Assembly: GCA_965178125.1 (NCBI GenBank)
Contig: OZ237746.1
Span: 1,054,001 to 1,118,000 of the forward strand
Reading direction: 5' to 3'
Origin: Bilabrum cf. latius
Taxonomy: Eukaryota
DNA: 64,000 nt
This document shows positions 4,610 to 54,639 of the stretch, piece by piece. The first letter of the stretch is position 1. The number at the start of each line of letters is the position of its first letter. A model generated the notes under the pieces. The model made no database searches. It was not told where the DNA came from and was given only the letters and a program-made list of their open reading frames with translations. Both the position numbers and the translations under genes were made by a program.

Positions 4610-4968
4610 CTCTTGCTGGGGCCCAGCGGGGGTTTTCAGTCCAAAGCCTCTGGCCTGCGACGGCGAGTGCTTGTTCCTGGAGGAGCGGACGCGGCTTGGA
4701 GCTGCGGTGCCCGCCCCCTCCCCTGCGGACAGCACGGAGCTGGCGGCCGGTGGCCCCTCGACGGTGCTGGGTCCGGGGCACATCTTGGGGGGCGTCTCGG
4801 AATGCATGAGTATTGCTACTACGACAGCTTTGAGTTCGGAGCGCACTACACTGCTGCACGTGCGTGCAGCATGCTGCTGAATGCTTGTTTCTGGGCCGGT
4901 GGTGCAGTGCGCTGCCGCGCCAGTTGGACCTCTGCTCGCATTCCCGTGTGCCTCGCACACCAAAGGCC

Positions 4969-16039: not shown

Positions 16040-16426
16040 AATAATACAATGTGCGGGTGACTGGCGCGATAGATCGGACAGATTCTGAATGAACCGCCGA
16101 CTAAGCTCGAAGCACTTGCTGCGTGTGGGAACCGCAGGAGTTCTCGTTGGTTGTGTCGCTAATCGCGTATACACCGGTGTGGTCGCAAGAGACCGTAATA
16201 AATAATCCAGCTATTCAAAGGGTGGATCTATTTAACCCTTCGAAGTGCGACAGCGAGCGAGACGAAAGAACTCGCATCAAATCGGATTTTTCAATCGTCA
16301 CCTCGGCCGAAATTGCACGGAACTTGGGATCCGAGACGGATTACAAAGCAGAGAGTCAGGTCGTCCAGGCAAGCCTTCGCACGGGGTGATAGCACAGTGC
16401 TTTGGATTATATCTTAGTGGGCTACC

Positions 16427-26216: not shown

Positions 26217-28775
26217 ATGGCAGGCGCGATGCAGCAAGGCCGATAGGTCTGGTCGAGCAGTGCAGTGGCTGCGTTTGGTGGCGGGAAGCCGTCTGGCGCT
26301 GCAGGGGCGGGGGGCGACCGAGGCTTTGCGCCGGTCCCTGCAGAGATGATTCAGTTCGCTCGTGATCTCGACTCTGCCGTCGCAGAGAAAAACCAGAGAG
26401 GTGAGGGGACACAATAGGCGGTGCGCTTTGATCGATGCGCCGCTCGACGGAATGCTGCCTGCCGTGCTCCGACCGGGCGCGTCCTTGTCGCTCTGCACGA
26501 GAATCCGAGTGTTTGTTTGAAACCCCGTGCCCCCCACCGACCGACCGCAGATCTCCAGCAGCTGTGTTCCAAGGAGCATTTGCTTGGTTTGCTCAAGGAT
26601 GGTGCGCACAGGCGGCTGCCTGCGCTGCACTTGGTGTCGCAGCACATGGTTCGTGCGCCGGTGGCGGCTGGTCTGCTGTACAGGATTCTGTTCTACCGAT
26701 TCAACCTGATCATCCTGCGCGACGCCGCCGGCGACCGGAAGAATCCTCCCATGGCGATGATCGCAGACGCGTGCGCCACGTTTATTGAGTTTTTGGACGC
26801 CGTCATGCGCACGAGGGAACCCGAGGCTGGTTCGAAGAAGGTGTTTGCGAGGCAGCTCGAGCTGCCCGCGGATGTGTGCTTTGACATCGTGGACGGAAGC
26901 ATCCTGCGGCTGTACGAAATTTTCCACAGGGAGAGGTGAGCCGGCCAGAATCGGCCTCAGTAGCGCCCAGCCCGCTGCCTCAGGCCGTGGAGGCGGATCG
27001 CGCGCCGTGCCCCACGGATCCGCGTTCGCGTAGCTGCACTCCGACAGTCCTACCTGTTCATCACCTGCACGGCCAAAATCCCCATCACTCACCAGTGAAC
27101 CCGCTCTTACTCCCACTCCCACCCGCGCAGGCAGCAGTTCGTGGAGAAGCAGCGCAGCGCAGCCGCGGCCCAGGGCGTGGAGCTGGACCCCGGGGCGGCC
27201 TGGGTGATCGAGAACGTGGACTGCCAGAGCGTGTGGCTGCTGGACCAGCTGCTGGCCTCGCTGCAGAACGTGGTGGCCAAGGCGGGCACTCGGCGGGAGC
27301 TGGAGGGCGGCGAGGACGAGGAGGCGGTCGAGGGCGAGGACGGGGAGGAGGGCAGCGGAGGGGAGGGGGTGCCCCCGCTGACCCGCCGCTGCGGGACGTT
27401 CTGCCTGCTGGCCCTGCTGCGGCTGCACACCAAGTGCGGCGATTTCGGCGCTGCCGTGGAGACGGTCAGCTGCCTTCGGGCCTCGACGGACTCTAGGTTC
27501 CTTCTGGCGAGGGGCTGCCACCTCAACCTGTGGTACTACGCGGCTTTCTCGCTCTTCATGGCGCGGAGGTACGCGGACGCGGCGAGGGCACTCGGCCGGG
27601 CCATGCCCCTGTACCTGCACCTGCTGGACAAGTCCCACCGCCGGGACTTCCAGAGCAAGATCATGAGCAAGATGGCCGGGCTGCTGCTCCTGTGCACGGC
27701 GCTCTCCCCGGGGCTGGCCGTGGACTCGGGGCTGCTGCAGGCCGCCCGCCAGCTGCCGCACCTGGCCCAGCGGGTGGAGAGGCTGAGGGACCTCTCGGCG
27801 GTGGCGGCGGCCGTGCAGGCGGCGGCCCGCGGGGACGGGATGGCCGAGCTCCTCGCTGCGGCGGAGGAGGAGGACGAGGAGGAGGGCGAGGACGGGGAGG
27901 GGGGAGCAGAGGACGGGGGGGACGGGCGCGCCTCGGGGGGTGCCTCCGGCGCCTCGCTGCACGACGCGGGTGCCGCCCGCGCCAGCGTCAAGGAGGCCGT
28001 GCAGGAGCTGCGCGCCCTCTTCAAGGAGGTGGCTCCCTCGTTCATCGACCCGAGCTTCCCCCCCGTGCAGACGGCCGACACGCCCCTGGAGCACCACACG
28101 CACTGGTTCATGCGGGAGGCGCTCCCCCGGCTGGCCACCGTGCCGGCCGTGCGGTCGCTCTTCTCTCTCTACGACTCGATCGAGGCCAGCAAGGTGGGCG
28201 CGCTGGCCAGCCTGCCCGCGGACAGCACGCGGGCGGCCCTGGTGGCCACCAAGATGAGGACCATCGAGGTGAGGGGCGCGGGGGACGCGCCCGCCAGCAG
28301 CGGGCCCCTGGGGTACACGGACAGCGACGTGCACTACAGCGTGGCGGCAGACGGGGTGGTCGAGGTGGCGCACGCGGACGACGCCGCAGGGGGGGAGGTC
28401 AAGTCGGTGGTGGCCCCGGGGTCCGCCGCCCCCTCCACGGCCGAGTCGGACGCGGCTGCGGGGTCGTCGTCGTCGGGCGGGGGCCACCGGCTGTCCCTGG
28501 ACGAGGTGCGCACGGCGGCGCTCATGGCGGCGCAGGAGCTGCGCCTGGGCGCGGCGGGCTCCGCGGGGTCGGCCGGGTCCCGCAAGTCGGCCCGCTCGAG
28601 CGGGGGCGCGCTGGAGAGCTACGTGAGGACGCTGCGCAAGTCGAGCCAGCAGAGGGTGCGGGCGGTCAAGAACTCGTCACGGCTGGCAGACGCCACGGTG
28701 GAGCAGCTGCAGAGGGTCAAGGCCGAGAAGCAGGCCAGGCTGGCGGCGGCGGGGGCCAGCGAAAGCAAGGCCTGA
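26217..28775 (+). CDS. EIF3L: Eukaryotic translation initiation factor 3 subunit L; exons 26217-26400, 26551-26935, 27131-28775; 1 in-frame TAG (26244)
   Basis: Motifs LLYRILFYR, LELPADVCFDIVD, GTFCLLALLRLHTKCGDF, LWYYAAFSLFMARRYADAARAL, VAPSFI and VRSLFSLYDSIEASKVGAL. Both GTGAG...GCAG introns preserve the frame. Stop TGA. Confidence 0.85.
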
Positions 28776-29116
28776 GGCCGGCGGGATCCTTTACGGTCGT
28801 TTTTCTCTTCCCCCTTCCAAAATGGCCTGGGTTCACTAGCAAGCCTCAGGGCAAGGCTTTAGTAGAATTGGCGCAGGTCGACACAGATTTGTCCCGTTTC
28901 TCCGATCCTGCCGACCGCACACGATTTTCAGGCACGAAGCTATGGAAAACACAATTTTATAGTGCAACCGAGCGACGGCATAAACTCTGCCTTCCAAGCC
29001 CGCGCACGAAACCACGCGTGCGACCTGCTGCGAGCCCACTGGCTCCCTCTGCGGTTGATCGATCGATCCACCACTTTGGGGATCGATCAACCCCTTCCCT
29101 TACCAGTGCGCGACCC

Positions 29117-30463
29117 TCACTTGCCCTTCTTGGCCCCAAGCCCGAGGCTCTCCTCCTTGGCGGTGGCGGGGAAGATGCCCTGCGCCACTGCCCGCACCAC
29201 GGCGTCCTTGAGCGTGGGTGCGGTGAGCGCTGGCACCTTGTAGGAGAACCGCAGCTCTGAGGTGAGCTTGGAGCCGTCCAGCTTCATGTGCTTGTTGGAC
29301 AGCAGCTCGGGGTGCAGGTACGGGCTCAGCGGGGTGGCCTTGATCTTGTTCTCGGAGAGCAGGCGCGTCCAGGGCGCCATGTGCGTGGCGTTGGCGGCGT
29401 CCACGGCCGTCTTGATGGCCATGCTCGCCGCGCCCGAGACGAGCATCCCGTGGAAGCCCGTCTTGATCTTGAACACCTCCGAGAGCACGCCGGCCAGCTT
29501 CTCCTGCGTCGTGTCCCCGGGGTCCACCACGTTGTACACGGACCCGGGGCCCGCCTTGCCCGCCGCGGCCAGGTGCCACAGCGCCCTGCACAGGTCAAAG
29601 ACGTGCACCGTGTTCACGCTGAGGCCCTTGTCCCACAGCAGCTGCATCTTCTCCCCCGTGTAGCGGTACGTGGCGGCGCACACGGCCCTGGGCATGACCC
29701 CTTGCACGTCCGCCGGCCCGTACACGAGTGCGGGCCGCACGATGAGCGAGGGTAGGCCCGCCTTGGCGAGCTCGTTCACCTTCTCCTCCGCCGCCAGCAG
29801 GTACTTGGCCGGCGTTGTCCACGGGTCCGTCGCGTTCGACTCCTTGGCGGCTCGCCCCGTGGACTTGTACACGGCCCCCGTCGAGACGAAGATGAACCGC
29901 TTCACGCCGAGCTTGAGCGCGGCGTCGGCGCACTTCTCCGCCGCCGCAACCGTCTTCGCGTACCGGTCCTCCTTGAGGCCGTAGCCCGTCTCTGCGCACA
30001 AGTTGAACACCACGTCGAACGCACCCTTGGACGGATCGAACGCCGCGGCGACGTGCTCGTCCATGGCCAGGTCCGCCTGGACGAAATCCACCAGGTCGGA
30101 CGTGAGGGCAGCCTTGTGCTCGTCCCTGCGAGATCGGGTTGAAAATAAAGCGATGCGCACGTACGTACCGAAAGCCCAGGAGGCGTGCGGGGCGAGGCGC
30201 GAGGACTGTCGCCCGCGCTCGCTCGCTCGATCGGTTGGGTGGTAGAGTCGACAGCGTCCGCGATGCCCTCACCCTGCAAATACCATGGTTGGTCTCTTTT
30301 TGTCTGCTACGCGAATGGAAGACACAAGCTTGTTGTCAATCAGGTACTTGACAAGGTTCCTGCCGCAGCTGCCGCAGCCTCCGAGCACCAAAACCCGTGG
30401 CTTGCCCCCAGCGGACGATCCGCCACCGCTCCCGCCCGTCGAAGCGCCAGCCACGCCGGCCAT
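29117..30463 (-). CDS. NAD-dependent epimerase/dehydratase (extended SDR) family protein; intron 30126-30272
   Basis: Rossmann motif RVLVLGGCGSCGRNLV, then FDVVFNLCAET, RFIFVSTGAVY and IVRPALVYGP. Stop TGA. No TAG codons. Confidence 0.88.
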
Positions 30464-30675
30464 GTCAAACAATGGATTTTCAGTTACCGCGAAAACACAG
30501 TAGGGCGCTACCGAAAAGCGTGACGCGCCGATCAAATGGCCCCCATTGGCGGGATCCTGCGCAGCTGCCGGCTCGTCACCCAGCGTTCTGGATGCCGCCG
30601 CGGCCCGGGGCGGCCGGGGCGCTGGCGGCAGCGACGCCAAGCAGTGGATAGATACTACTGGAATGATATTGCAGA

Positions 30676-32609
30676 TCACTCATCGTCCTCCTCATCCTCT
30701 TCCTCCCCGTCGCCTTCGCCCTCCCCCTCCTCGTCCGGCTAGTAGCCAGGGTCCGGCAGGTTGAGCAGCACCAGCCCGCGCAGCTGCACGGGGGTGAACG
30801 CAGACAGCGCCAGCTCGTCGGGCAGCACCCACGGCCCGGACCCGGCCCCCTCGCCGCTGCCCCCGGCAAGCCCAGAGGCGGCTTCCTCGGCCTCCTCCGC
30901 GGAGAGCCCAGCCGCCGCCCCCGCCTCCCGCACGGCCTGGGCCTGGCTCAGGCTGCCGTCGGGCCGCAGGGAGCCGTGGGCCAGCCGCAGCATGCGGCCC
31001 CTGAACACTTTCTGCGCCCCTTCCTCCTCTGGCACCTTCTCCTGCACCCAGTCCCGTATCCTGGCCAGCACAGCCCCCACCGTCTCTGTCCTGGCCAGCT
31101 GCACGGGGCCCACCACCAGGTCCTTGGGCTTGCTCGGCATGCTGCTCTCCGAACCCCCTCCCCCTTCCTCGTCCTCGCCCTCCTTCTCTTCCCCTTCCCC
31201 GTCCTCTTCGTCGTCCTCTCCATCGCCATCGCCACCTCCCTCCCCGTCCTGGCTCCCTTCTCCCTGCAACTACCCGTCCTCTTCCTCCTCTTCCTCCCCT
31301 TCCCCCCTCGGATCCACCCTGGACACGATCACCGTCAGCAAGATGGGCTGGCCCAGCAGCGCTTGCCTCCCCGCCTGCACCCGTGCCCGCAGCCGCACCA
31401 CACATCTCTCCTTCCTCTTCCGCAGCGCGTCCCGGATCAGGTCGTCCACAAGCCCCCGCGCGACCGCCCTCCTCTCCAGAGGGCCCCCCGTCCGGATGGC
31501 GTCCTCCACCACGCGAGGCACCGCCACCGTCTGCATCTCCGTGGCCACCCCGTCCTCGAACTGCCCCCGCAGCCGCATGCGCCGCAGAGCCTCCGCCAGC
31601 CCCCTCCGAGCCGCCGCCCTGCCCACCTGCAGCGCGCACACCTTGGCCGCCGCGTCGCCCGCCTGCCCCGCCTGCCGCATCCTCCTCCTCATCTCCATGC
31701 GCCCCCGCTGCGCCGCCGCCAGCGCCCTCGACTCCATCTCGCGGATGCGGGCGGCCTCCCTGCGCCTGTCCTGCAGCAGCTCGTGCCTCCTGGCCTGCAG
31801 CCCCCCAAGCTGCTCCTCCTCGGTGACCTCCAGCAGCGCCTGCTCCAGCGTCTTGCCCACCAGCACGTCCAGCAGCGGGGCCACCTCCTCGTCAAAGTCC
31901 CACAGCAGAGCGGGGTCCGTCTGCGTGTCCGCGTCCACGCCGCGCTTCATGTGGTTGCCCTGCATGCAAGCAGGGTCTCCAGCGGGGTACGCGGGCCGCG
32001 GGGGCGGGAGCACGAACTCGTCCGTCTGCGTGGCCTGGTCCAGCACCTCGCCTCCCGCCGAGCGCAGCGACGCGATCGCCGGGTTCTCCTGCTCGTTCTC
32101 CACCAGAAACTGCGTGAGATCTATTTCTTCGTGAGACTCTGGCCTTGCCCTCGCCTTGAACGGGTTGGGCCCTCTTCGGCGCCGCCTTTCCCTCGCCTTG
32201 GCCGCGCGGTCCTCCGCCGTGGAGGTCGAGCCGGCGACTTTCTCCACGTCGGCGTGAGCCAGCGTCCTGCCGAAGGCGGCACCTAATCTGCTCTGCGAAG
32301 CAGTTGCGTCGCTGCCGGCTGGTGCGCCCGGCGCGTCGAACTGGCTCCCCCAGGCCGAGCCACCAGGCGCGGGGTCGCCGGCGCGGCCGGCGGCGCCCGG
32401 CGGACGCGCGAGGGCGGACCCTCTGTAGACACGAGGGTCATGCATAATATTTATGCTGCGTGGGAAGGCGCACGGGTGCTATGGATTTCATGATTCGCTG
32501 CGGGAGCGGCATAGTTGCACATGGTTCCGAAGGGGGCCAGCTCTTACGCCTTTCTAGGCTCATCCGCCGATCGATACAGGTCCTGCGGGGCAAAATCCGA
32601 TTGGTCCAT
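30676..32609 (-). CDS. RSPH3: Radial spoke protein 3 with C-terminal extension; intron 32456-32547; 2 in-frame TAG (31270, 30739)
   Basis: INIMHDPRVYRG, QATQTDEF, GVDADTQ and LLWDFDEEVAPLLDVLVGKTLEQALLEVTEEEQL. The frame continues across two TAGs to an acidic tail and TGA at 30676. Confidence 0.9.
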
Positions 32610-32791: not shown

Positions 32792-33518
32792 ATGCCGGGA
32801 AAGGAGGCCACCGACAAGGGTTAGTCGTATTAGGAGTAGCATTGATTCATATTATGTCCCTGTTGTCTTCCTGAATGCGTCTAAATCGCTGCAATCGCCT
32901 GGCTTGCAGTTGCCGCCGTCGCTGGCTGCGGCACGCCAGGCCTGCCACCGGCTGCTGCTATCCTTTACTCGATTCCTCCATCCCGAATCTACCGTTGCAG
33001 CTGCTGCCACTGCCCGTATGGTGCGCAAGGGCGCCCACGGCAAGACCATCAAGGTCCGCACGTCTGTGAGAGCTTGGGATTGTTCGCACCAGTGACTGCC
33101 GTAGCTCTGAATTTTCCCGCCCGCGGTCGGAGCACTGGCACATTCTTTGCACCATTGCACCGTTTTGATATCGCAGGTGCGCTTCTACAGGCCCAAGACC
33201 CTGTCGCTGCCCAGGAAGCCCAAGTACTTGTCTAGGTCGAGCCCTCGCCTGCCCCGCCTCGACAACTGGGCCGTGATCAAGAAGCCCCTTGCGTCTGAGC
33301 GTGCCATCAAGCAGATTGAGGACGCCAACACTTTGGTTCTGATCGTGGACGTGCGCTCGAACAAGCAGCAGATCAAGCGCGCCGTGGAGGAGCGGTACGA
33401 TTGCAAGGTTGTCAAGGTCAGGACTCTGATCCGCCCCGACGGACAGAAGAAGGCCTACGTCATGCTCAAGGCTCACCAGGATGCTCTTGATGTGGCTAAC
33501 AGGATCGGCATCGTCTGA
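32792..33518 (+). CDS. RPL23A: 60S ribosomal protein L23a (uL23); exons 32792-32819, 33001-33065, 33177-33518
   Basis: Spliced product [48 protein letters not shown]...[21 protein letters not shown]...[13 protein letters not shown]...[12 protein letters not shown]. Stop TGA. No TAG codons. Confidence 0.96.
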
Positions 33519-34021
33519 GCTTGCCTATCACGCTGGCTGGTGGCTGCCGGCGATAGTGGACCGGCAGCACTGGAGTGGAAGGGGGGATGTCGCTTGCCCG
33601 ACACCGCTCACTGTGATATGAATCATTGGTGGTGCGTGGATCGGCTGCGGCGAGCTGCGGCTTGGCTTGTGCGACGTGATCGCTTGTCGTGCGTTGATAG
33701 AAGAAGCAAGTGTGCCGCAGTCGTATAGTGTGCCTCTCTTTACTATAAAGAGACCACCTCGCCAGTGCAAACGAGCTGGCACTATTGATGGTGCAGTCCG
33801 TAGTCTATCAACCCACCGGATTCATGCGCACCAGCCCACGCCACACTTATCATCAGGAGGGGTGAGGGGCATGCGCAGCTGAGCCCGGAGTCGAAACCAC
33901 ACCAGCCAGCTGCCCCTGATCAAGCCACTCAGGTCGTCAGGGAAGTTGCCCACGGGCCAGTCAGGGCTGACTGGCATCCGCACATAACTTGTTTTCAAGC
34001 ATCTCCGTGCGCCCTAGGTTC

Positions 34022-35441
34022 ATGAAGTCTCGGCACAGGGGTGGGAGGCCCTCCTCGTTTCTCCGTGTGAGAGGCATCCTTGCCGCACGTGTCTCGTTTG
34101 AACCCTCGGCCTGGGCCGTAAAGCACTGCTCCATGCCGCATTGTACTATGCATATGAGAACGATTCCCTCATCTTGCCACATGAACGCTTGCCTGATTCG
34201 CATGCAACGCGCGTTCCCCCATCCGTTTCATTTGAAGTATGCTTTTGCGTCGCAGGACCGGCGCCTGCTCATTGGGGGCCTCCTTGGCAGCGTGGTGCTC
34301 GTGATTATTGCGATTCGGTTCATGTCCGGGGGCGACTCGGGCACCAGCAATTCGTCGGGTTCGCAAACAACGGTTCGAGGCCACTCGGCCGCTCCGATCG
34401 ACAACGTGGATCTGGAAGGCACGACCCCAATCCCGGGCGAGGAGCTGCTCAACACCCCGCACGGGTGAGTCATTCCATAATTTGCGCATCGCGCGCTCCT
34501 GCTGCCGCCGAGCCGGCCCGGAGGCAATCTTTGCCAGTGGCGCTGCTGGCTCCCGTCCCTTGCTGTGCCCCTTCCATCCGGCCCGTAGCGTCCTCCCATC
34601 CGCCCTATTCTCGCACCACTGCACCCCCACTCCACCCCCCCCCGCGCTTCCCCCGCGCTTCCCCCCAATCGCCTCATTGCAGCGGCCAGCTTGTGAACCT
34701 GATCGCCTCCGCGGACCGTCAGCGGGCCTTGCGGCTGGACGTGTCCCCCCAGCTGCCCACGCTCACGCTCACCCAGCGCCAGCTGTGCGACATCGAGCTG
34801 CTCATGTCGGGCGGCTTCTCCCCGCTGAACAAGTTCATGACGAGGGACGTGTACGAGGGGGTGGTGAACGACATGCGGCTGGGCCCCTCCTTCGGCGACC
34901 GGGTCTTCCCCATGCCCATCACGCTGGACGTCTCGGACGAGGTGGCGGCGGGGGTGAGCCCCGGCAGCCAGCTGGCCCTGAGGGACCCCTTCTACAACCT
35001 GGTGGCGGTGCTCACTGTGGAGGACAAGTACCAGCCGAACAAGGCGGAGGAGGCGCTCAAGGTCTTCGGGACGAGGGACCAGTCGCACCCCGCGGTGGAC
35101 TACCTCATGAACCAGGCGGGCTCGTGGTACATTGGGGGCTCCATCGAGGGGGTCAGGCTGCCCCAGCACTTCGACTTCAACGAGGACAGGCTCACCCCGA
35201 GGATGGTCCGGAGGCTCGTGGCCTCCCGCCGCTGGGACAAGTTCGTGGCCTTCCAGACGAGGAACCCCATGCACCGCGCGCACATCGAGCTCACCCGGCT
35301 GGCGGCCGAGGAGATCGACGCGGGCGTGCTGATCCACCCCGTGGTGGGCATGACCAAGCCGGGGGACGTGGACTACGCCGTGAGGGTGCGCTGCTACAGG
35401 GCCATCGTGGCCTCGGGGCGGTACTACAAGCCGGGGCGGGT

Positions 35442-35472
<31 letters not shown>

Positions 35473-37149
35473 ATGGCGGGGCCCAGGGAGGCCCTGTGGC
35501 ACGCCATCATCCGCAAGAACCACGGGGCCACGCACTTTGTGGTGGGCAGGGACCACGCGGGGTGCAAGAGCTCCGCGGGAGAGGACTTTTACGGCGCCTA
35601 CGACGCGCAGAACCTGGTCAAGACGCACGAGAAGGAGATCGGCATCACCATGCTGCAGTTTAAGAAGATCACGTACGTGCCCCGCCTGCAAAAGTACCTC
35701 CCCGAGAACCAGGTGCAGGAGGGGGAGGTCACGGACAGCATCAGCGGGACGCAGTTCCGGGCCATGATGGCCTCGGGGGAGCCCATCCCGGCGTGGTTCT
35801 CGGACCCGGACGTGATCAAGATCCTGAGGGAGGTGTCCCCGCCCAAGAACAAGAGGGGATTCGCCATCCTCTTCACGGGGCTGAGCGGGGGCGGCAAGAC
35901 CACCATCAGCCACGCGCTCATCAAGCGGCTGCAGAGCGTCATCCCCACCCGCAAGATGACCATCCTGGACGGAGACGTGGTGCGCACGCACCTGTCGAAG
36001 GAGCTCGGCTTCTCGGTGGCCCACCGCAACATCAACGTGGCGCGCATGGGCTTTGTGGCCTCGGAGGTGGCCAAGCACGGCGGCATCGCCGTCTGCTCGT
36101 CCATCGCCCCCTTCGAGAAGAGCAGGGAGGCCACCAAGCGGCTGGTGCAGCCCACGGGGGGTGGCTACCTGCTGGTGCACGTGTCCACCTCGGCCGAGGA
36201 CTGCGCCGCCCGGGACGTCAAGGGCCTGTACCGCAAGGCCATGCAGAGCAACATGGCGCTGACGGGCGTGTCTCATCCCTACGAGAACCCCGAGAACGCG
36301 CAGCTGACCATCGACGCGGGCAAGGTGTCCGTGGAGGACAGCGTGCGGTTCATCGTGGGCTGGCTGGTGCGGCAGGGGTACGTCGACGAGGACCTCGTGT
36401 CCGCGGGGGAGAGGGGCCAGGACCTGGAGGAGAGGGGCGTGCTCACCGAGGGCGCCGAGGACCCCATCGCGGGGCTGTGCAAGTTCAGGGAGGGCCTGCC
36501 CTCGCACCAGCCGAGGGTGGTGCTGGCGCTCGGGGCCACCCCCGCGGACCAGCGGGCCATCGTGGACGAGGTCATGGCGGCCGCTGGGGCCGGCGCGGGA
36601 GGGGGGGATGGCGCGGCCCGGCACAGGGTGCCCGCGGCCGACATCGTCCGCTTCGAGCTGGGCCATGGGGCCGCCCCGGAGTCGTACGGCGAGGTGCAGC
36701 CCGAGAACGCGGGCTCCGTGCCCGAGGGGGCCGACCCTTGGTTCCCCACGGGCACCCCGCTGTCCTCGCCCAGCGACGACGACTCGAGGACCGAGGTGGC
36801 ATGGGACGCGTGGAGCGGCATGCGGGACGCAGTGGGTCCCCCGGGCCCCGAGCGAAAGGGCAAGACCGTGGTGGTGTCAGGGACCCGCCTGCTGGCCCAC
36901 CTGCCGTCGCTCATGCGGCAGGACCCGTGCATGTCTGTGGCGGTGAGGATGCCGGGGGCCACGGACGCGGACGGGCAGGCGCTGGTCTCGGCGCTGGGCG
37001 CGGCGGCCCCCGGGGAGGGGGGAGACGCCGGGTCTGCGGCGCAGTACCTGCAGGACTGGGCCGCGGCGGCGCAGGGGATGGCCAAGACGTACTCGAAGCG
37101 CGTCTTCGTCGGGGACGACGCGGCCTCCAAGGCGTGGAGGGCGGTCTGA
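34022..37149 (+). CDS. Bifunctional ATP sulfurylase-APS kinase with N-terminal signal-anchor and extra C-terminal domain; exons 34022-34066, 34256-34464, 34683-37149
   Basis: PHG|GQLVNL is restored by splicing. ATPS motifs: [68 protein letters not shown]. Kinase domain: LFTGLSGGGKTT, LDGDVVRTHLSKELGFS, RDVKGLYRKA, LTGVSHPYENP. Hydrophobic segment LLIGGLLGSVVLVIIAI at 34265-34315. Stop TGA. Confidence 0.93.
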
Positions 37150-37392
37150 TCGGCCGAGGGAGGGGAATGTAAGGGTGGAAAGAAGAGGGGAAAAGTTTTG
37201 GAAAAAAAGGCGTGGCTCACTGCGAGGCCAGATGGGGGTGAGCTCGGGTGCACCAGATCGGACCCCAGCTGCCGGCCCGGGCGGTCCGTTCGTTCGGTTC
37301 CGCTACGCGGACGAAAAGAGCTTCTGTGCCGAGGAGGGAAGTCATTGTCCCGTCGGCAGCATCGCTGCCCGACCAATCTATTTCTTGTTCAC

Positions 37393-38580
37393 ATGTCATC
37401 CATGGATCAATTTGCCAAGATTCACGCCGGCATCGTGCAGCAATGCGCGGCTCCTCCCGAGATCGCCGCGGATCTGCTGCTGCCCGAGTACGGCTGCGCG
37501 CCGGCCTCCCTTCCGTCCAGCACGGCAGCTGTTCGGGTAGAGCTGCCTCGAACGGTGTGCGGCGCTTTGGCGCGTGTGGTCGTGAAGAGCCTCGTGGAGC
37601 GCGATGCCGTTCGCCGGTACGGGCCGGCTGCTTCGTGGGACCCGAGCGTGCGAGCGGCAGCGCCGGCTGCCGAGCCGTTGGCCGCACCGTCGGCAGAAGG
37701 AGCAGCACTAGAGGAGATCGATTCGTCTGCGTCGTTTCGGATGTCGCCGAGGATACGTGAGGCGCGCCTGCGGGCCACGATGGCCGCACGGTCAACTGCC
37801 GTCAAGGTCGCTGCGACCGCGAAGGACCACGTCGAGATTGCGTTCCCCTCCGCGCTCACCCTTGAGGGTGTCATGTATGGCGTTGTCTCTTCCTTTGCGG
37901 AGACCTGCACGGAGCCCATCCAAGACGCGATCCGTGACGCCCTGGACGCTTGCGAGCTCGAGTGGCAGCGCGCCGACGAGGTCGCATCGGCTCGCGGGCA
38001 CCCCCACCACGCGGAATCCAAGCAAGTGCCTGCCGGCGGCACCGTGAAGCAGCGCAGGCGCAGACGAGCCCGCCAGCGCCGCATGTCGCACAGCGTGCTC
38101 CCTTGGCCGAGCCAGCACTACCGGGAGGCGGTGGCGTGCGCCAGGCGAGCCCGCCTCGTGTTCAAGTTCGCGGGCGTGCGCGAGTACCTGCGGTCCCCGG
38201 GGAGGACCGTGGCGGGCACAGAGGCGGCGCAGGCGGCGCTGGAGGTGAACAGCGGCGCCCTCGTTCGGATGGTGGCGCTCACGCACGGGGAGGCGGCCCG
38301 CCGGGAGGTGAGCGTGGCGCTGTCGAGCGGGGAGAGGAGGGCCCTGCGGAGGTCCCTGGCGCTGCCCATGCAGGTCAAGGTCAGAGTCAGAGGAAGAGAA
38401 AGAGAAAGGGGAAGGGGAAGGGGAAGGGGTAGGGGTAGGATTGCAGGTGCGGGGCAAGAGCAGGTGCAGCCGCCCGCCCTGCCCAGGCAGAAGGAGACGA
38501 GAGAGGAGGAGAAAGTGGAGGAGGGGGAGGGGAGAGAATAGATCACCACGGGCCCGCGGATCTCGGCGGGACTGTAGGAC

Positions 38581-38613
<33 letters not shown>

Positions 38614-41600
38614 CGCAGCGAGCCGAGTGCGAAAGCGAGTGCGCCTCCCGGTCTGGCCTCCAGGGGCAGGGGCAGGGGCAGGGGCAGGGGCAGGGGCAGC
38701 ACCATGGTGGTGGTGGCGCCCCCCGTCACTGTGCCCCGGCTGCTGCGGTCCATCCGGGGCCTGCTGCACCCCTCCCCGCTGGCAGGGATAGAGGACGCTG
38801 ACCCGACCGCGGCCGTGTACGGCGCGGCCCCGGCGTCCATGCACGTGCCCTGGCGCTCCGTGAGCTGGCCGCTCCGGGTGAGGGTCCGGCGGCTCGTGGG
38901 CCTGGGGCGCGCGCTCGCCATGGCGGCTCTGGCGGACACGGCCAGGATCGGGGCCTCCCCGCCCGTGGACCCGCAGACGCACAGGGAGGCGCACGGGGAG
39001 GCAGACAGTTCCGATTCCGGATCCGACGGAGAGGAGGACGGGGGTGCTGAGGAACACAACGGGGAGGAGCCCTTCGTGGGGGGCGACAAGACCGGGGCGG
39101 CGGGCGCGGGGGGCGGGCACCGTCCTGCAGCAGGCGGCCACTCCCACTCGCGGGGTGTGTCCTTCGGCGAGGCGTCCTCGGTGGGGTCTTGCGGCGGTGG
39201 CGGGGACGGGACGTGGGTCGATGGGGCCCGGGGGGGTGTCCCGTCCGTGGGTGGGCTGGTCCGGCTGAGTTCCCTGCGAGGGAGGGCGTTGTTCTCTAGC
39301 CTAGGGGGCGCCAGGGCCACAGCCAGCTCTCGGTTCCTGCTGCCCGTGGTGGACGAGGGCGTGGGCGTGGGGGCGGGCGTGGGGGCGATTGCGAGGGGGA
39401 TGAGCTACGGGCCGAGCACGGGGGCGGGGCTGGGGCTCGGGCTCGGGGGCGAGACGGTGCACGGGACGTGGTCCGGTCGATTGCCGCTGCCTGGGAGGCA
39501 AGGTCCCGGCCCAGGCGGCAGCGAGGGGGGGTAGGGTCTGGCCCTGGCCCTTTCGTCACCCCGGCGCGCCGTCAAGTCGACCGAGGGCGCCCTGCAGCAT
39601 CACGCGCACGCGCCCATGCTGCTGGGCGCGACCGCCTCCCGTGGGGCCTCCTTCGGGCGGTCCTTCGGGCGAGCGAGGCAGTCGATGATGTCCGGGGCGC
39701 AGCTGGGCCTGGGCCTGGGGCTGGGGCTGGCCCACCTGGATTCCTCCGCCGATTTCCTCGTCAGGGGCGGGACCTCCGGGTCGCTGACCCCGGGGTGGGA
39801 TGCCGCCTCAGGGGCGGGATCGGTCTCCTCTCCGGGCGGGCCCCATACGCCCGGCCACGGCCACATGCACCGCCAGCACAGCTCCTCGTCGTCCTCCTTC
39901 GCCCCGCACCCCCTGGTCCGGAGGTCTCCCTCGAGATACGCGATGAGCTTCAGCGGCAAGATGGTGCAGCTGTTCGACAGCGCGCTGGACTCGGCCTTGG
40001 ACGCAGTGCAGGGCCAGGGCCAGGGGCAGGGACGGGGACGGGGGCAAGGCGCGGGAGCGGGCGTGCCCCCGCCCCTCACGCCTGCCAGCCGCGTGGCGGC
40101 CGCAGTGCAGTCCACCGGCGTGTTCCGCAGCAAGGCTGTGGACACGCTGCAGAAGGCCGCGCTGCCGGCGGTGACGAGCGTCATCGTGCGGGTGCACCTG
40201 CGCGCGGGGGGTCAGGAGGTGCCGGGCACGAGGGTGGAGACGCAGCCCTTCCCCGTCTCGGACAGCGCGGTGGCTGCTGGGGGCGACCTGGAGGCGGCGC
40301 TGGGGCGGCAGCGACAGCAGCGCACGTCGGGGTCCATGCGGCCGGTGCTGCGTCCGGCCTTCACCGTGACGCCCGCGGGGGGGTCAGGGGGCCTCAGCGC
40401 AGAGCTGCAGCCCTCGCTGCTTGTGCGGGAGGACGAGGACGAGGGGGGGCTGGAGGAGGGGGAAGAGGAGGGGGCTGGTGGCGGAAGCAGCGCTGGCGGA
40501 CGGGGAAGGGCAGGGGGCGCGCACAAGAGAAGAGGATCAGGAGCAGCTGCGGCCTCATGCTGGAGCCCTGACGCCGACGTGCTGCAGCTGGACGACGTGA
40601 CGGCCGGGGAGTGGCTGTGCACGCGCATCCCGCTGGGCCAGGTCCCGCAGGAGAGCGTTCTCCTCGTGGAGATCGTGGGCATCTGCGATCTGGGCGCTGC
40701 CTCGGAGCCCGTGCGGCTGGCCGCGGCCTCCCTCCCCCTCGCGGACCACCTGGGCCGGCTGCGGTCGGGCAGGCACAGCGTGCGCATGTGGCCGGGGCAC
40801 CACGCGCGCACCACCGCGGGCCTGCAGAGCTCCCCCCCGGGCCAGTACGCCGCCCCGCTCCAGACAGAGGCCCGCGCGCACTGGCTCGCGGGGGAGCCCG
40901 CCAGCCGACCGTACGAGGCCGTGGCGGCTGCCAGGGCGGAGATGGACCGAGCGGCGCGCGGGGGTGGTAACGGAGGTGTGGGGAGCGGAATGGGTCGTGC
41001 TGGGGGTGCGGGTGGCACTGCAGGGGACGCGCAGCTGCAGGCGGCCATGCTGCCGGCCCCCCACGCGATGGCACGATCCCCGCCCGCGCACCCGCTCTAC
41101 CGGTCCAGTCAGGAGGAGCCCAGCGCGAGGCCAGGGCCCGGGCCCGGGGCCGGGGCCGGTGTGGGCGGGGACGAGGAGGGGGGACCCCAGCAGGACAGCG
41201 GCAGGAGCGGGGGCAACGGTACGTGCGCCCCGCTGCGCGGTCATGATTCGTCCGAGGAGGGCGAGGAGAGCGGGTCTGTTGTGGAGCAGCTGCACGCGAT
41301 CGAGGACGAGGGGGACATGGACGCCCTCGAGAAAGAGATGCAGGCAGTTGCAGGGGCGGGGGCTAAGGCGGGGGCAGAAGCTGGTGCAGGCGCAGGGGAA
41401 GGTGCTGGGGAAGAGGGCGGCGGACCCCGTGGAGGTGGCATCGCCTCCCGCCGCCGCCCTCGCCGGTCGTCAATCCTGGGGCGCGAGTCCGGCGGGCTGC
41501 TGCACATCCAAGGGGGGTAGGGGCGCGGTCCTGGTGGTGCTGGGGAACAAGGCGCGTCCGAGGGCGATGGCAGCGGCAGCGGCAGCGGCACTGACTCTGA

Positions 41601-44600
41601 CTCGGAATCGGAATCGTCCGACGCCGGCGGTGCGCTGCAGGGTGCAGAGGCGGGTGGAGGCGCGGGGGACGTGCTTGACGAGGCCGACTGCATCGACGAG
41701 CAATCGGGCGCCGTGGCGGGCAACCTGCTGGGGGGCCTCCTGCCCTCCGTGCCCAAGGAGCACGCAGTGCAGTGGGACGCGGGGCTCTTCGACCTGGGCC
41801 AAGGGGTGCGGGCGGACCTCGAGATCGACGCGATCGGGCTGCCCGTGGTGGGCGACACGCCCCCGGTGACCATCGACACGGTGCGGAGGGCAGCCGAGCT
41901 CTCGCTGAGGAGGGGCGAGGCGGAGGTGAGGACGGCACTGCACGAGGGGGGCGAGGGCACCAGGCTGCGGCCGCAGGGGCCGGGCCCGCGGGGGTAGGGA
42001 AGCGGGGGCCAGGGGCGGGATCAGGGGCGGGATCAGGGCAGCGGCGGTGCAGGTGGGTCTACTGCCCCGAGGCGCGTCTCTTTGCTGGTAGGACACGGGG
42101 CCGGGGCCTCTGCGGGTGCGGGTGCGGATGGAGAGGGACCTGCCGGCCGGAAGCTCACCCTGCGGCACGCGCCGTCCTTCCAGAGCATGTCTCGCAAGCA
42201 GGTCATGGCGGTGTCCAGCAACCAGAGGCACCTCGTGGCCACAGAGTCGGCCCCGCCCCCGCTGCCGCCCAGTTCTGTTCAGTCCCCGGGCGACAGCGCG
42301 AACGAGCGGAAGCAGGGACAGCGAGAAGGTGACGGCGGCAGCGCCTCCTCTGTGCCCAGCAGCGGCGCGGCGAGGGCGGCAGCGGCGGGGACTGCCGCCG
42401 ATTCGAAGGCGAGGCAGGGGCACAGGGCGAGCGTGCACAGGTCGAGCGTGCTGCTGCAGGCGGACGCCCGTCTCCGTCGGAGCGCGTCTCTCTCTCTCGC
42501 TGGTGGCAGTGGCAGTGCCAGTGGCAGTGGCAGTGCTGGCGGGGGAGCGCAGCAGTAGGACAGCGGTGGGGCGGGCGGTCTCATCGCGCGGGCCAGCAGC
42601 GCGGCCGGGTCCGTACCCGGCGCAGGGTCAGCGTCAGGGGCGGGGTCCGGGGTGGGCTCGGCCGGCCGCGCCCCCTCCCGCAGCACAGCAGGAGGGGGGG
42701 GTGACGGAGACGGGGACGAGGGGACCACGGCCAGCGCAGCCGCCCGCTCCCAGGTGATCCGGGCACTCACCCACCGCACCGTGTTCCCCACAGACCTGTG
42801 GTGGATGCTCCCTCCCGCAGACCTGGCCGAGCCCGCTCCCGCCGTGCACGCCGTGGAGTACCCCCTGGGCGGACCCCTGGTGCCTGCCCCCAGGAGGGGG
42901 CTGGAGTGGCCGGGGGCAGCTCTGGCCCCGGAGGGGTCGCTGTCGGCCACCACCGCGGAGATGGACCCCGGGCTGCAGCTGCTGGCCGTGCTTGCCGCGG
43001 GCGGCGTGCGCGCCGGGCCTGAGAGGGCGCGGGTCTGCGGCCTGGGGGGAGGAGCGGCACAGGGCGGTGGTGAAGGCAACGGCGCGGGCTCTCCGCTGCT
43101 CCTGCACGCCGCCACGGCCTTCTGGAGCGTGCCCGCGGCCGTGCAGCTGTTCTCCAGGTGCGACGTGCCGCACCACCTCGCGAGCCACGGGCCGAGGCCG
43201 CTTGCCTCCGTGGGCCTGCAGCTGCGTGCCAGCGACCTCTCGGGGAGGTGGTCGAGCCTGGCCCAGGGATCTGCCGCGGGGCTGCCGCAGGCTTGGTTCG
43301 TCCCTTCCCCGGGAGCAGGAGGGGCTGGAGGAGCGGCTGGCGGTCTCGCTGCGACGGGGCTGGGGGGACCCACGGGAGGGCAGCAGCAATCCCCCCCCGC
43401 GGGGGCCCTGGTCACCCTCGTGGCCCGTCCTCACCCTCGCAAGGGGCACCGCGGGGACGGAGACGAGGTGGTGCTGCTGCTGACAGTGTGGACATTCGGG
43501 CAGCAGGGGGGGGTCTCGGACGAGGACGCAGATGTTGGCGCGGCGACTGGCGTGCGGGACTCCGTTGGCAGCAATAGAAGCAGCAGCACGAGCCGTGGGG
43601 TGGGCGCGTCGGTGGGCGTGCAGCACGGCCCTCACGCGGCCATCCGCGCGATGCTGGCGCCCCCGCCGCTGGGACAGGCGGCCGGTTCCTTCGCTCGGGC
43701 CATGTCCACCTCGTAGCTCTCGAGGTCCCCGGGCATACCCGTCATGTGCGGCCTGTACGAGGTGGCGCTGCAAGGCGCTGCACTCAGCCAGCAGCTCGCG
43801 GCGGCCGGCGAGGCCCCGCCCGGCAGTGCCAGTGACCGGGGGATCCACGCTGCAGGCGAATCGTCTGCGCCGGGCGGCGCTCACGCAGCCGGCACGCCCG
43901 TCGTGGGGGCCTCGGACGCGCTGGTGCCCGTGGCGTCGTCGGGCGCGGGTGTGGGCACCGGCGGTGTGGGCGCCGGTTTAGACACCGCTGGCGGCGCTAG
44001 CAGCAGCAACAGCGTCACGCACGGCAGTTCCGGGCTCCTGGGCGACGTGCTGGGCGGCACGGGCGGGGCGGCGGCGGGCGGGGCGGTGCGCGTGGCCGTG
44101 GTGCGGTACGGCTGGCTGCGCAAGCTGGGCGCGACCTCGCTGTCTCGGTGGAAGCGCCGTTGGTTCGTGCTGTCCGAGCAGCGGGGGTCCGTGAGCTACT
44201 ACACGTCCAAGCTGCAGCAGACCCCCCGCGGCGTCATCCCGCTGGCCTTCACCGAGGTGAGGAGGCAGCCGGGCCGCAACGAGACCTACCAGCGGATCGT
44301 GGGCAGCACGCGCAAGACGCTGGTGGCCTACTGCTTCTGCATCGAGGCGGCCAGCCGAGGGGCCAGCGCGGCGCGGCGCGGGGGCGGGCGCGCGTACTAT
44401 TTGTACACGGACACTCGCCAGAGCATGGACCAGTGGATCGACGCCATCGCCACCGTGAGGGACTCGGCCGAGGCGAGGCTGGCGCAGACTCTCGGTGTGA
44501 CGAGCAAGGTGCGGGGCAGCAAGGGCCAGGCCAAAGCCGAGGCTGCGGGCGCGGCCGTGGCGAGCTCGCTGGACATTGCCACCAACTCGAGCGACTACCC

Positions 44601-53289: not shown

Positions 53290-53411
53290 GTTGCCGGGGC
53301 CGGGATTCGAATGGTGTGGGAGTCGCCTTCGTGGACTTGGCCTGTCCGGTGATGTGAAGGCTCCGGGTGCGACTCGGACTAGTAGGTTCTCTACTGCTGG
53401 GCCGCAAAGTG

Positions 53412-54506
53412 TTATCTTCCCGCCCCCGATGCCGCCGCAACCCCCCCGGCGCCAGCACCCTTGTCCGCCTCAGCACCGACCACCTCACCGCCCCCACTCT
53501 CGCCTTTGTCCTCTTCCTCGTCCTCATCCTCCCCGTCATCCAGAGCCACCACGCCATCCTCCTCCCCTACCAATGGACCCCCATGGGCATCGCTCGAATC
53601 CTCCGCTCCTGCCGCTGTGCGACCTCCAGCACCATCGCGAGAGTCACCCGCCGCGCCCGATTTACCCCTGCCACCGCCCCTGGCCGCCGCGTCCTCGCCA
53701 AGGCGAGCATCGAGCACTTGCTCCACCGCCAGCAGGAGCGACTCGATCTGGGCCGCCAACACGGCGCCCCGCCGCGCCACCCCTTCGCCAGGTGCCGGCG
53801 CTCGTCCCCCGAGGCCGCCGCTTCCCCTCCTGTCCTCTTCATCGCCCGCGGAGCTGTGCCTCTCCAGCTCGCCGAGCGGTGCGAGCAGCGAGCGGAGCGC
53901 GGGGAGCAGCCGGCGCGCCTCCCAGCGGGCCGATCGGCTTTGCGAGAGGTCCACGGGATCGCTTGCGCCGCTAGAGTCGCGCTCTTCAATCTCTTGGACC
54001 TCCATGAGCAGGTCGGAGGACGCAGAGACCACGCTGTCGGAAGCAGACAGGCCGATCTGGATGTGGCTGCGATCGGCGGATTGGCCGTACAAGCGCGCAA
54101 GCAAGTTCGAGGGTGGGCAAGGGCGATCGTAGGGCAAGGCGCGCGCATCAATCAATGGGGCAATCCCTCACTCTTCGAATCTAGAGGCCAGAAGAGAAGC
54201 AGCCATGGCTGCCATAGGAATCACCCACGCGCTCGGCGTTTCGCAATCCGGCCAGCGCGGCAAGTCCCCGCCTTTTCCTGAAGATCCCGAACCAACGAGT
54301 GAGTACAGGCCATCTGCTACGATGCAGGCGTCTTTCGATGCGGCAATCGTCTTCAAAACGGCAAGAAGTGCAGCCTCTGGGTCCGCAGCAGATACCCAGG
54401 CGCTTGAAGCATGCTGCGCTGCCCTCAGGCGGGCAGACAGCACGGCAACATAACTCGCATGCCCGGATGTAGCGCAGTCACGAAAATCAGCGGCTTCTAC
54501 GCTCAT
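53412..54506 (-). CDS. Hypothetical helical protein with acidic tail; intron 54067-54171
   Basis: Exon 1 MSVEAADF...SRFE joins via GTGAGG...TCGCAG in frame to DHIQIGLSASDSVV... Stop TAA at 53412. The start could instead be 54215. Confidence 0.6.
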
Positions 54507-54639
54507 TGATCCTGACGGGGACAGGCGCCAACGTCCCTTTGCGCAGTTGCCACAGTGCGGTGCGACCAGCTCTCCGGGGTTGCTGCCAACGACAGCAGTT
54601 AGGGAGGAAGGGCAGCACAGATCGCCCGATCTTGGCGGT

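What the first reader, a model, noticed from the sequence alone, without database searches (positions are those of the whole stretch)
34022..34464. ATP sulfurylase-APS kinase with a type II membrane signal-anchor: possible lumenal PAPS synthesis
Seen in sequence: spliced N-terminus MKSRHRGGRPSSFLRDRR-LLIGGLLGSVVLVIIAI-RFMSGGDSGTSNSSGSQTT..., that is a basic tail, one hydrophobic helix and a Ser/Thr/Gly stem before PHGG. The kinase P-loop (GLSGGGKTT) is intact. Established: this topology is typical of Golgi glycosyl- and sulfotransferases, whereas PAPS is normally made in cytosol, nucleus or endosymbiotic organelles and imported into the Golgi by PAPS transporters. Inference: a membrane-tethered PAPS synthase in the secretory lumen, a localisation I do not know to be described.
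Basis: partly seen in the sequence, partly recalled or inferred. Interest (0 to 1): 0.7.

Follow-up and report, generated by a model that had tools for sequence, protein, structure and literature searches.

The report
Membrane-anchored sulfate-activating enzyme in protists
A single-celled eukaryote and its relatives carry the enzyme that makes activated sulfate (PAPS) on a membrane anchor that probably points it into the secretory compartments, so they may make PAPS where it is used instead of importing it as animals do; the location is predicted, not yet shown.

Summary
The gene has three exons (906 aa). Both introns are spliced in contigs of three runs from two studies, and ATG 34022 is the first ATG. 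It encodes a basic tail, one 17-residue hydrophobic helix, a stem, an ATP sulfurylase and an APS kinase with intact core motifs. The helix is conserved in 10 of 10 homologue clusters with complete N-termini, Cafeteria roenbergensis included, against 0 of 184 short bacterial-type forms. The genome also encodes two catalytically degenerate paralogues with secretory leaders, an anchored pyrophosphatase model and an anchored PAP phosphatase. This gene is the only intact APS kinase found. A separate APS-reductase/sulfurylase fusion with a mitochondrial-type leader would serve sulfate reduction. Best reading (0.65): PAPS is made in the ER/Golgi lumen. Against it: no localisation data, two unclassified SLC35B transporters that may import PAPS, an in-frame Met38, and one kinase Phe-to-Leu change. 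Seven literature searches found no such localisation. In passing: this genome reads TAG as sense, probably Gln.

The parts
33938..34021 (+). 5' untranslated stretch reached by spliced contigs; no ATG, in-frame TGA at 33968
34022..34066 (+). exon 1: start codon and most of the basic N-terminal tail (residues 1-15)
34067..34255 (+). intron 1, 189 nt, GT..AG, stop-free and in frame
34256..34464 (+). exon 2: end of tail, helix, stem, start of the PHGG motif
34265..34315 (+). single hydrophobic helix, residues 19-35; predicted type II signal anchor (charge +5 before, 0 after)
34316..34456 (+). stem, residues 36-82; holds Met38 (34322-34324, possible second start) and the only N-glycosylation sequon after the helix (Asn47)
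34465..34682 (+). intron 2, 218 nt, GT..AG
34684..35154 (+). PUA-like domain of ATP sulfurylase (Pfam PUA_2, E 5e-44)
35188..35832 (+). ATP sulfurylase catalytic domain (E 4e-80) with QTRN, HRAH and GRDHAG motifs
35854..36315 (+). APS kinase domain (E 7e-44); P-loop GLSGGGKTT at 35878-35904; LDGD, KGLY and PYE kept; Phe of the usual FTG motif is Leu
36388..37146 (+). C-terminal domain with no Pfam match; predicted P-loop-kinase/sulfotransferase-like fold without a catalytic loop motif; two conserved Cys at 36478-36480 and 36928-36930 (residues 684, 834)
37147..37149 (+). stop codon TGA

Best explanation
The protein is a bifunctional PAPS synthase of the sulfurylase-first, kinase-second type that enters the ER as a type II membrane protein: basic tail in the cytosol, one helix, and stem plus all catalytic domains in the ER/Golgi lumen. 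There it would turn sulfate and ATP into APS and then PAPS beside the secretory sulfotransferases. An anchored pyrophosphatase would remove the PPi that otherwise reverses the first step, an anchored PAP phosphatase would clear the product, and an SLC35B1-like exchanger would supply ATP. The C-terminal domain is non-catalytic, probably disulfide-bonded, and may sense nucleotide or scaffold partners. Sulfate reduction is done by a separate APS-reductase/sulfurylase fusion. SHOWN: gene structure, splicing, domains, motifs, conservation of helix and cysteines, existence of the companion genes. INFERRED: orientation, compartment, enzyme activity, the disulfide, the companions' start codons and leaders, and that they work together.
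For: (1) Charge difference C minus N is -5 here; it is zero or negative in 9 of 10 homologue clusters (negative in 8), with P0121 at +1. The positive-inside rule is established knowledge, recalled. (2) All 10 homologue clusters whose N-terminus reaches the PHG motif have a helix (KD17 1.75-2.84); 0 of 184 short forms reach 1.9. Two more cluster members start with an anchor-like (P0252) or signal-peptide-like (P0249) segment. (3) Paralogues L009 (anchor, KD17 2.96) and L010 (signal-peptide-like, 1.98) have lost catalytic motifs but keep leader and C-terminal domain. (4) The tail after the kinase has exactly two Cys in this protein and in 15 of 21 long homologue sequences; both positions are present in 20 of 21 and in both degenerate paralogues. 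(5) The pyrophosphatase search was made as a prediction: 1 of 4 genes models with an N-terminal helix, KD17 3.24. 1 of 3 inositol-phosphatase-family genes is anchored and nearest to PAP phosphatases, E 7e-31. Both sulfotransferase loci found have hydrophobic leaders. (6) It is the only APS kinase with an intact P-loop found. (7) The leaders of L008 and of the C21 pyrophosphatase are Arg-rich, acid-free and amphipathic with no helix (moment 0.62, 0.76; KD17 under 0.9), unlike this one (0.38; 2.91).
Against: No localisation, topology predictor or assay could be run; only hydropathy and charge counts. Two SLC35B-family genes (L012, L014) are unclassified and may be PAPS transporters, so the ordinary import route may exist. 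Met38 has the same GGTTCATG context as Met1 with no ATG between, so leaky scanning would give a soluble enzyme. The Phe kept in 181 of 184 short forms is Phe in only 2 of 19 long forms, so kinase activity is not assured. Companion gene models lack RNA support, and the pyrophosphatase leader needs a TAG read as sense. P0249 is probably a gene call that runs through an intron. 8 of 20 long-form clusters are truncated and say nothing about the anchor. Some homologue tails are as amphipathic as presequences (0.60-0.73 in P0004, P0012, P0018). Sequons are few (0-2 per homologue).
Confidence: 0.65

Rival explanations
1. Secretory pathway, but another job or place: the kinase domain is regulatory (as in fungi) and the enzyme makes only APS, or it works at the cell surface or in a vacuole-like compartment rather than the Golgi.
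For: Phe-to-Leu change in the kinase; best whole-protein PDB match is the Penicillium enzyme whose kinase-like domain is regulatory; few sulfotransferases found.
Against: P-loop GxSGxGK[ST] intact in 19 of 19 long forms; the kinase domain alone is nearest to the Thiobacillus and Aquifex enzymes (E 3e-48, 6e-40), above Penicillium (4e-31); no other intact APS kinase found.
Confidence: 0.12
2. Dual initiation: ribosomes often skip Met1 and start at Met38; the soluble cytosolic form does the work and PAPS is imported as usual.
For: Same context at both ATGs, T at -3, no ATG between; unclassified SLC35B genes; it would explain the lack of a separate soluble kinase.
Against: A Met in the stem is found in only 4 of 11 homologues; T or C at -3 also occurs at other starts of this genome such as RPL23A and Prp8; it does not explain the conserved helix or cysteine pair.
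Confidence: 0.09
3. The helix tethers the enzyme to ER or Golgi with the catalytic domains in the cytosol, feeding PAPS to a PAPS transporter.
For: Needs no lumenal ATP or sulfate; candidate transporters exist; P0121 and P0004 have no negative charge difference.
Against: Basic residues lie before the helix here and in 8 of 10 clusters; signal-peptide-like starts in L010 and P0249 would release the same domains into the lumen; cysteine pair.
Confidence: 0.08
4. Bipartite mitochondrial targeting (presequence plus stop-transfer helix) puts the enzyme in the intermembrane space, an oxidising compartment; sulfate activation in an organelle of mitochondrial origin is known from Entamoeba.
For: Arg-rich tail; the reductive fusion L008 has a mitochondrial-type leader; Entamoeba precedent.
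Against: Tail is Gly/Pro-rich with a low moment (0.38 against 0.62 and 0.76 in two internal controls); several homologue tails have 5-12 Gly/Pro in the first 30 residues; signal-peptide-like variants exist.
Confidence: 0.06

Closest known systems
Bifunctional ATP sulfurylase-APS kinase of Aquifex aeolicus (PDB 2gks) and the bacterial Sat/CysC fusions
   Same: Domain order PUA-sulfurylase-kinase, both motif sets kept, 51-55% identity to ~575-aa bacterial proteins
   Different: Those are soluble: PHG motif within the first 25 residues in the 156 of 184 where it was found, no helix, no C-terminal domain
Penicillium chrysogenum ATP sulfurylase (PDB 1i2d, 1m8p)
   Same: Best whole-protein PDB match, E 2e-156, same domain order
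   Different: Its kinase-like domain has a degenerate P-loop and is regulatory; cytosolic; no anchor
Metazoan and stramenopile PAPS synthases with cytosolic synthesis and SLC35B2/B3 import
   Same: Both activities on one chain, serving sulfation
   Different: Reverse domain order; made in the cytosol and imported into the Golgi. The Thalassiosira form has a signal peptide plus transit-like region and was read as plastid-targeted
Entamoeba mitosomal sulfate activation (sulfurylase, APS kinase, pyrophosphatase)
   Same: The whole activating set moved into one organelle, with a pyrophosphatase
   Different: Organelle of mitochondrial origin; separate enzymes; PAPS is exported to its users rather than made beside them
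Golgi type II enzymes such as TPST and the Golgi PAP phosphatase
   Same: Tail-helix-stem-catalytic layout (layout recalled); TPSTs are among the fold matches of the C-terminal domain, Z 8.8
   Different: They consume PAPS or PAP; no sulfate-activating enzyme with this layout turned up in the searches

Membership tests
Bifunctional Sat/CysC-type PAPS synthase | PUA-like, ATP-sulfurylase and APS-kinase domains in that order | tested here: met
Bifunctional Sat/CysC-type PAPS synthase | Sulfurylase QxRN, HxxH and GRDHAG motifs | tested here: met
   QTRNPMHRAH in this protein and 19 of 19 long forms
Bifunctional Sat/CysC-type PAPS synthase | Kinase P-loop, LDGD, LGFS, KGLY, PYE | tested here: met
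   alignments to 3cr8, 2gks, 5cb6
Bifunctional Sat/CysC-type PAPS synthase | Phe of the FTG motif (APS adenine stacking; role recalled) | tested here: not met
   Leu here; Phe in 2 of 19 long and 181 of 184 short forms
Bifunctional Sat/CysC-type PAPS synthase | Measured APS and PAPS formation | not testable with these tools
   needs assay
Fungal ATP sulfurylase with regulatory kinase-like domain | Degenerate P-loop in the C-terminal kinase-like domain | tested here: not met
   intact here, degenerate in 1i2d/1m8p
Metazoan/stramenopile PAPSS | Kinase first, sulfurylase second | tested here: not met
Type II secretory-pathway membrane enzyme | Short basic tail, single N-terminal helix, stem | tested here: met
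Type II secretory-pathway membrane enzyme | C-terminus in the lumen | tested here: inconclusive
   charge difference -5, cysteine pair and signal-peptide-like relatives point that way; no predictor or experiment
Type II secretory-pathway membrane enzyme | Residence in ER or Golgi | not testable with these tools
   needs localisation
PAPS-dependent sulfotransferase (C-terminal domain) | Sulfotransferase fold | tested here: inconclusive
   STF1 Z 9.8, rmsd 3.3, 175 aligned, tied with gluconate and adenylate kinases at Z 9.3-9.9, rmsd 4.1-4.4
PAPS-dependent sulfotransferase (C-terminal domain) | Conserved 5'-phosphosulfate-binding loop after strand 1 and 3'-phosphate-binding Arg/Ser | tested here: not met
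   no conserved Lys/Arg-Ser-Gly-Thr loop in 15 aligned sequences; motif definitions recalled
PAPS-dependent sulfotransferase (C-terminal domain) | Sequence-profile match to sulfotransferases | tested here: inconclusive
   no sulfotransferase among the 25 of 40 Pfam families shown for 21 members; no significant PDB profile hit; E 0.47 to the genome's own sulfotransferase; the profile is shallow
Mitochondrial presequence protein | Arg-rich, acid-free amphipathic leader without Gly/Pro breaks | tested here: inconclusive
   moment 0.38 and 6 Gly/Pro against 0.62/0.76 and 1/3 in internal controls, but three homologues score 0.60-0.73

The most novel reading that the evidence does not exclude
A group of heterotrophic protists, Cafeteria among them, has moved the whole sulfation supply line into the secretory lumen: an anchored PAPS synthase carrying a domain descended from a sulfotransferase, an anchored pyrophosphatase, an anchored PAP phosphatase and catalytically dead paralogues acting as partners, so that Golgi sulfation runs on imported ATP and sulfate without a PAPS transporter, while sulfate reduction runs separately in the mitochondrion.
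Probability: 0.35. Interest if true: 0.85.

Novelty: new variant of a known kind. Interest (0 to 1): 0.72.

Why it matters
The papers read place sulfate activation in cytosol, nucleus, plastids, mitochondria or mitosomes, with PAPS carried into the Golgi. A lumenal PAPS synthase would add a compartment and show that PAPS transport can be bypassed. It is testable because a named, cultured flagellate (Cafeteria roenbergensis, KAA0156045.1) has the anchored form. It points to undescribed sulfated surface or secreted molecules in these protists. If it works in a Golgi lumen, it is also a natural tool to raise PAPS supply in cells engineered for sulfated glycans or tyrosine-sulfated proteins, and a probe of how much ATP and sulfate the lumen holds.

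Tried and rejected
No RNA holder was on record as RNA; expression rests on spliced joints, not on labels. A 151-nt contig at depth 2.1 crosses the intron 2 donor unspliced: taken as precursor or DNA, not as an isoform. A GGLPM-type segment in five homologues first looked like a sulfotransferase PAPS-binding loop (note); rejected because it lies before strand 1, not after it. The C-terminal domain as a duplicate of the protein's own kinase: no profile match, E 0.69. ESM Atlas gave only P-loop clusters at 0.80 or less. Foldseek gave nothing at E 0.001 or better. The word-index search on the C-terminal region found only a near-identical protein. The search of 1.84 billion representatives gave 7 hits: three fragments of this family, P0007, and three repeat-like hits not followed up; no stand-alone family was seen. 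The metagenome scan returned 80 of 596 confirmed loci, all of the short type: none has a tail over 230 aa or a C-terminal-domain hit, and the one hydrophobic upstream stretch (L079) lies before its Met. The C16 kinase hit is KTI12-like, not an APS kinase. The Gal-3-O-sulfotransferase search was silent in the controls too, so it says nothing. P0013's hydrophobic start was discounted as a gene call through an intron; its cluster mate P0252 was used. L012 and L014 could not be assigned to SLC35B1, B2 or B3: only B1 structures are in the PDB set. The review by Gunal et al. 2019 is not held. No earlier finding of this scan covers this gene or genome. No complex prediction was run, as no binding is claimed.

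Full report
VERDICT. The gene is an expressed, spliced, signal-anchored ATP sulfurylase-APS kinase with an extra C-terminal domain. It belongs to a small family of long forms, and the genome holds matching anchored companion enzymes. I put lumenal PAPS synthesis at 0.65.

GENE STRUCTURE. Exons 34022-34066, 34256-34464 and 34683-37149 give 906 aa and one terminal TGA. Of four runs laid, three (X1, X3 of one study, X2 of another) have contigs that skip both GT..AG introns; X12 crosses the stretch unbroken and may be the source DNA. The tool only guesses that X1-X3 are RNA; the spliced joints are the evidence. Two contigs start at 33938/33939. That leader has no ATG and an in-frame TGA at 33968, so ATG 34022 is the first start, and the next ATG is the in-frame Met38. 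Intron 1 is in frame and stop-free, so retention would lengthen the tail but keep the helix.

ANATOMY. Residues 1-18 carry 7 basic and 1 acidic residue. Residues 19-35 are the only strongly hydrophobic stretch (KD19 2.51, next best 1.15). The stem runs to PHGG at 83. Pfam finds PUA_2, ATP-sulfurylase and APS_kinase in that order. The sulfurylase motif QTRNPMHRAH and an intact P-loop are present here and in 19 of 19 long homologues. The kinase domain is nearest to the Thiobacillus and Aquifex enzymes, not to the regulatory Penicillium domain, whose P-loop is degenerate. One departure: the Phe of the FTG motif, kept in 181 of 184 short forms, is Leu here and Phe in only 2 of 19 long forms; its role in stacking APS is recalled, not looked up.

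C-TERMINAL DOMAIN. About 250 residues follow the kinase with no Pfam match. AlphaFold2 on a 19-sequence alignment gave mean pLDDT 78.7 and four strands among helices; the first residues of that alignment were misplaced. Structural search ties sulfotransferases with small-molecule kinases: STF1 Z 9.8, rmsd 3.3, 175 aligned; uridylate kinase 9.3; TPSTs 8.8; gluconate and adenylate kinases 9.3-9.9. The loop after strand 1 is not conserved, so neither a P-loop nor a PAPS-binding loop is present. Profile searches found no link to either group. I read it as non-catalytic. The tail holds exactly two Cys in this protein and in 15 of 21 long homologue sequences, and both positions occur in 20 of 21; the exception, P0252, lacks that stretch, which its cluster mate P0013 has. 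A disulfide is inferred; the tools gave no distances.

CONSERVATION OF THE ANCHOR. Two searches, each scoring 8000 candidates and listing 120, gave 20 long-form clusters besides a near-identical copy. Ten clusters have an N-terminus reaching the PHG motif, and all ten have a helix (KD17 1.75-2.84) and a stem. The charge difference is zero or negative in nine, negative in eight. Two more clusters have members that start anchor-like (P0252) or signal-peptide-like (P0249, probably called through an intron). Eight are cut inside the sulfurylase and are uninformative. None of 184 short forms reaches KD17 1.9. The named members are Cafeteria roenbergensis KAA0156045.1 (54% identical) and two entries labelled Symbiodinium sp. 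KB8, one of which clusters at 90% with the Cafeteria protein and may be a contaminant (inference). In a quick tree 20 long and 20 short forms fall on either side of a branch with SH-aLRT 100. No fungal, Dictyostelium or Toxoplasma sequence was available, so the group's standing among eukaryotes is untested. The host of this window was not identified; a Cafeteria-like flagellate is a guess from the nearest named relative.

THE REST OF THE GENOME. There are three sulfurylase loci. L008 is an APS/PAPS-reductase-sulfurylase fusion. It shows the FxxxxK and GDxxxT signatures that Patron et al. give for the forms without an Fe-S cluster, which they argue reduce APS (PMC2275785, passages; sequence), so reduction would need no kinase. 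Its leader looks mitochondrial. L009 is a paralogue with the same layout, an anchor, and lost catalytic motifs. L010 has a signal-peptide-like start, a degenerate kinase and a weak match to the C-terminal domain. The window gene is the only APS kinase with an intact P-loop among 12 and 4 candidates scored; these searches go exon by exon and the assembly may be incomplete. I then predicted that a lumenal sulfurylase would need a lumenal pyrophosphatase. Of four pyrophosphatase genes, one (L026) models as three exons with GT..AG introns and an N-terminal helix of KD17 3.24, one has a mitochondrial-type leader and two have none. Of three inositol-phosphatase-family genes, one (L032) is anchored and nearest to PAP phosphatases. 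The two sulfotransferase loci found have hydrophobic leaders. L013 is close to human SLC35B1 (E 4e-34), recalled as the ER ATP/ADP exchanger. L012 and L014 are unassigned SLC35B members; their motif resembles PAPST2 as I recall it, which would count against any need to bypass import. None of these companion models has RNA support here, and I could not test how common anchored pyrophosphatases are in organisms without the anchored synthase. How sulfate would enter the lumen is unknown; nine SLC26 matches exist, with no localisation.

MECHANISM AND RIVALS. Best reading: co-translational insertion as a type II protein; APS and then PAPS made in the ER/Golgi lumen; PPi and PAP removed by the anchored phosphatases. 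Channelling of APS has been shown for some bacterial fusions of this domain order (PMC3734648, passages). Rivals: secretory but with another job or place (0.12); a soluble Met38 form doing the work (0.09); a cytosol-facing tether (0.08); mitochondrial intermembrane space (0.06). The cytosol-facing and mitochondrial models fit poorly with signal-peptide-like relatives. The Met38 model fits poorly with a stem Met in only 4 of 11 homologues, but some soluble product cannot be excluded.

WHAT IS IN PRINT. Seven full-text searches of the held library bore on localisation; I saw their listings, and none named a secretory-lumen ATP sulfurylase or APS kinase. Passages read: Patron 2008 lists plastid, cytosol and mitochondrion, and reads a signal-bearing diatom PAPS synthase as plastid-targeted. 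PMC8625474 states cytosolic synthesis and import by SLC35B2/B3. PMC13213808 gives cytosol, nucleus, plastids, and mitosomes in Entamoeba. PMC11210485 showed no passage on secretory soluble pyrophosphatases for the terms asked. Most subscription papers are not held, including Gunal 2019, so absence from print is not established. No supplements were read.

GENETIC CODE. The genome reads TAG as sense. Prp8 is one 2791-codon frame with 4 TAG, one inside a stretch almost identical to human Prp8, where it faces His. In the window a PI3-kinase (4353 codons, 10 TAG) and Rft1 (7 TAG) become whole. In SLC26 paralogues, 9 of 29 TAG sites had a well-aligned partner, and 10 of 19 partner residues were Gln. 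A TAG faces a Gln of human SLC35B1; three sites in sulfurylase columns were variable, with Gln second in two. TAA ends three of the frames counted. Three searches found no stramenopile case; PMC11687900 (passages) lists UAG-only Gln for some ciliates and Iotanema. The gene studied has no TAG and is unaffected.

SCORES. Interest 0.72; new variant of a known kind. The chemistry is known; the predicted compartment, the extra domain and the anchored companions are not described in what I could search.

Noticed in passing
genome-wide; window 37150-50208 (+), 54454-57294 (+), 8741-16231 (-); L025 19-8391; L118-L125: TAG is read as a sense codon, probably Gln, while TAA and TGA end genes. No stramenopile case was found in three searches; the host's taxon is not established.
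   Followed up: partly
L008 (G000:C27), 4019-7046 (-): APS/PAPS-reductase fused to ATP sulfurylase, with a mitochondrial-type leader; suggests mitochondrial sulfate reduction, which Patron 2008 knew only from Euglena.
   Followed up: partly
L009 (G000:C5), 2242-6482 (+): Anchored paralogue with the full layout but without the QTRN/HRAH motifs or P-loop; open frame of 1366 codons under TAG=Q; possible pseudoenzyme partner.
   Followed up: partly
L010 (G000:C6), 1965-4010 (-): Signal-peptide-like start, degenerate APS kinase and C-terminal domain, no sulfurylase.
   Followed up: partly
L026 (G000:C30), 1410-2580 (-): Family I soluble pyrophosphatase modelled with an N-terminal membrane helix; first exon has no RNA support here.
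   Followed up: partly
L027 and L028 (G000:C31, about 232000-237600): Two tandem pyrophosphatase genes with an N-terminal extension that looks like an EF-hand (by eye).
   Followed up: no
window 37150-50208 (+): Giant single-exon PI3-kinase (C2, PH, PIK, kinase domains), whose frame opens right after the sulfurylase stop; a PH domain inside a PI3-kinase is unusual as I recall. The X1 contig of the sulfurylase transcript runs past 37400.
   Followed up: no
window 33019-33519 (+): Ribosomal protein L23a gene with a 111-nt intron, just upstream on the same strand.
   Followed up: yes
window 27099-32478 and others: Ordinary neighbours: eIF3L/Paf67 (27099-28775 +), NAD-dependent epimerase (29117-30268 -), radial spoke protein 3 (31270-32478 -), CLU, Ada2-like, enoyl-CoA hydratase, Pan3, two protein kinases. 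Long frames 20915-23881 (+) and 50812-53469 (-) have no Pfam match.
   Followed up: no
L011 (G000:C16), 2433-4073 (+): KTI12-like kinase followed by a long Gly-Ala dipeptide repeat.
   Followed up: no
P0123, P0252: Two NCBI entries labelled Symbiodinium sp. KB8 belong to this family, one in the same 90% cluster as Cafeteria; possibly contamination of that assembly.
   Followed up: no
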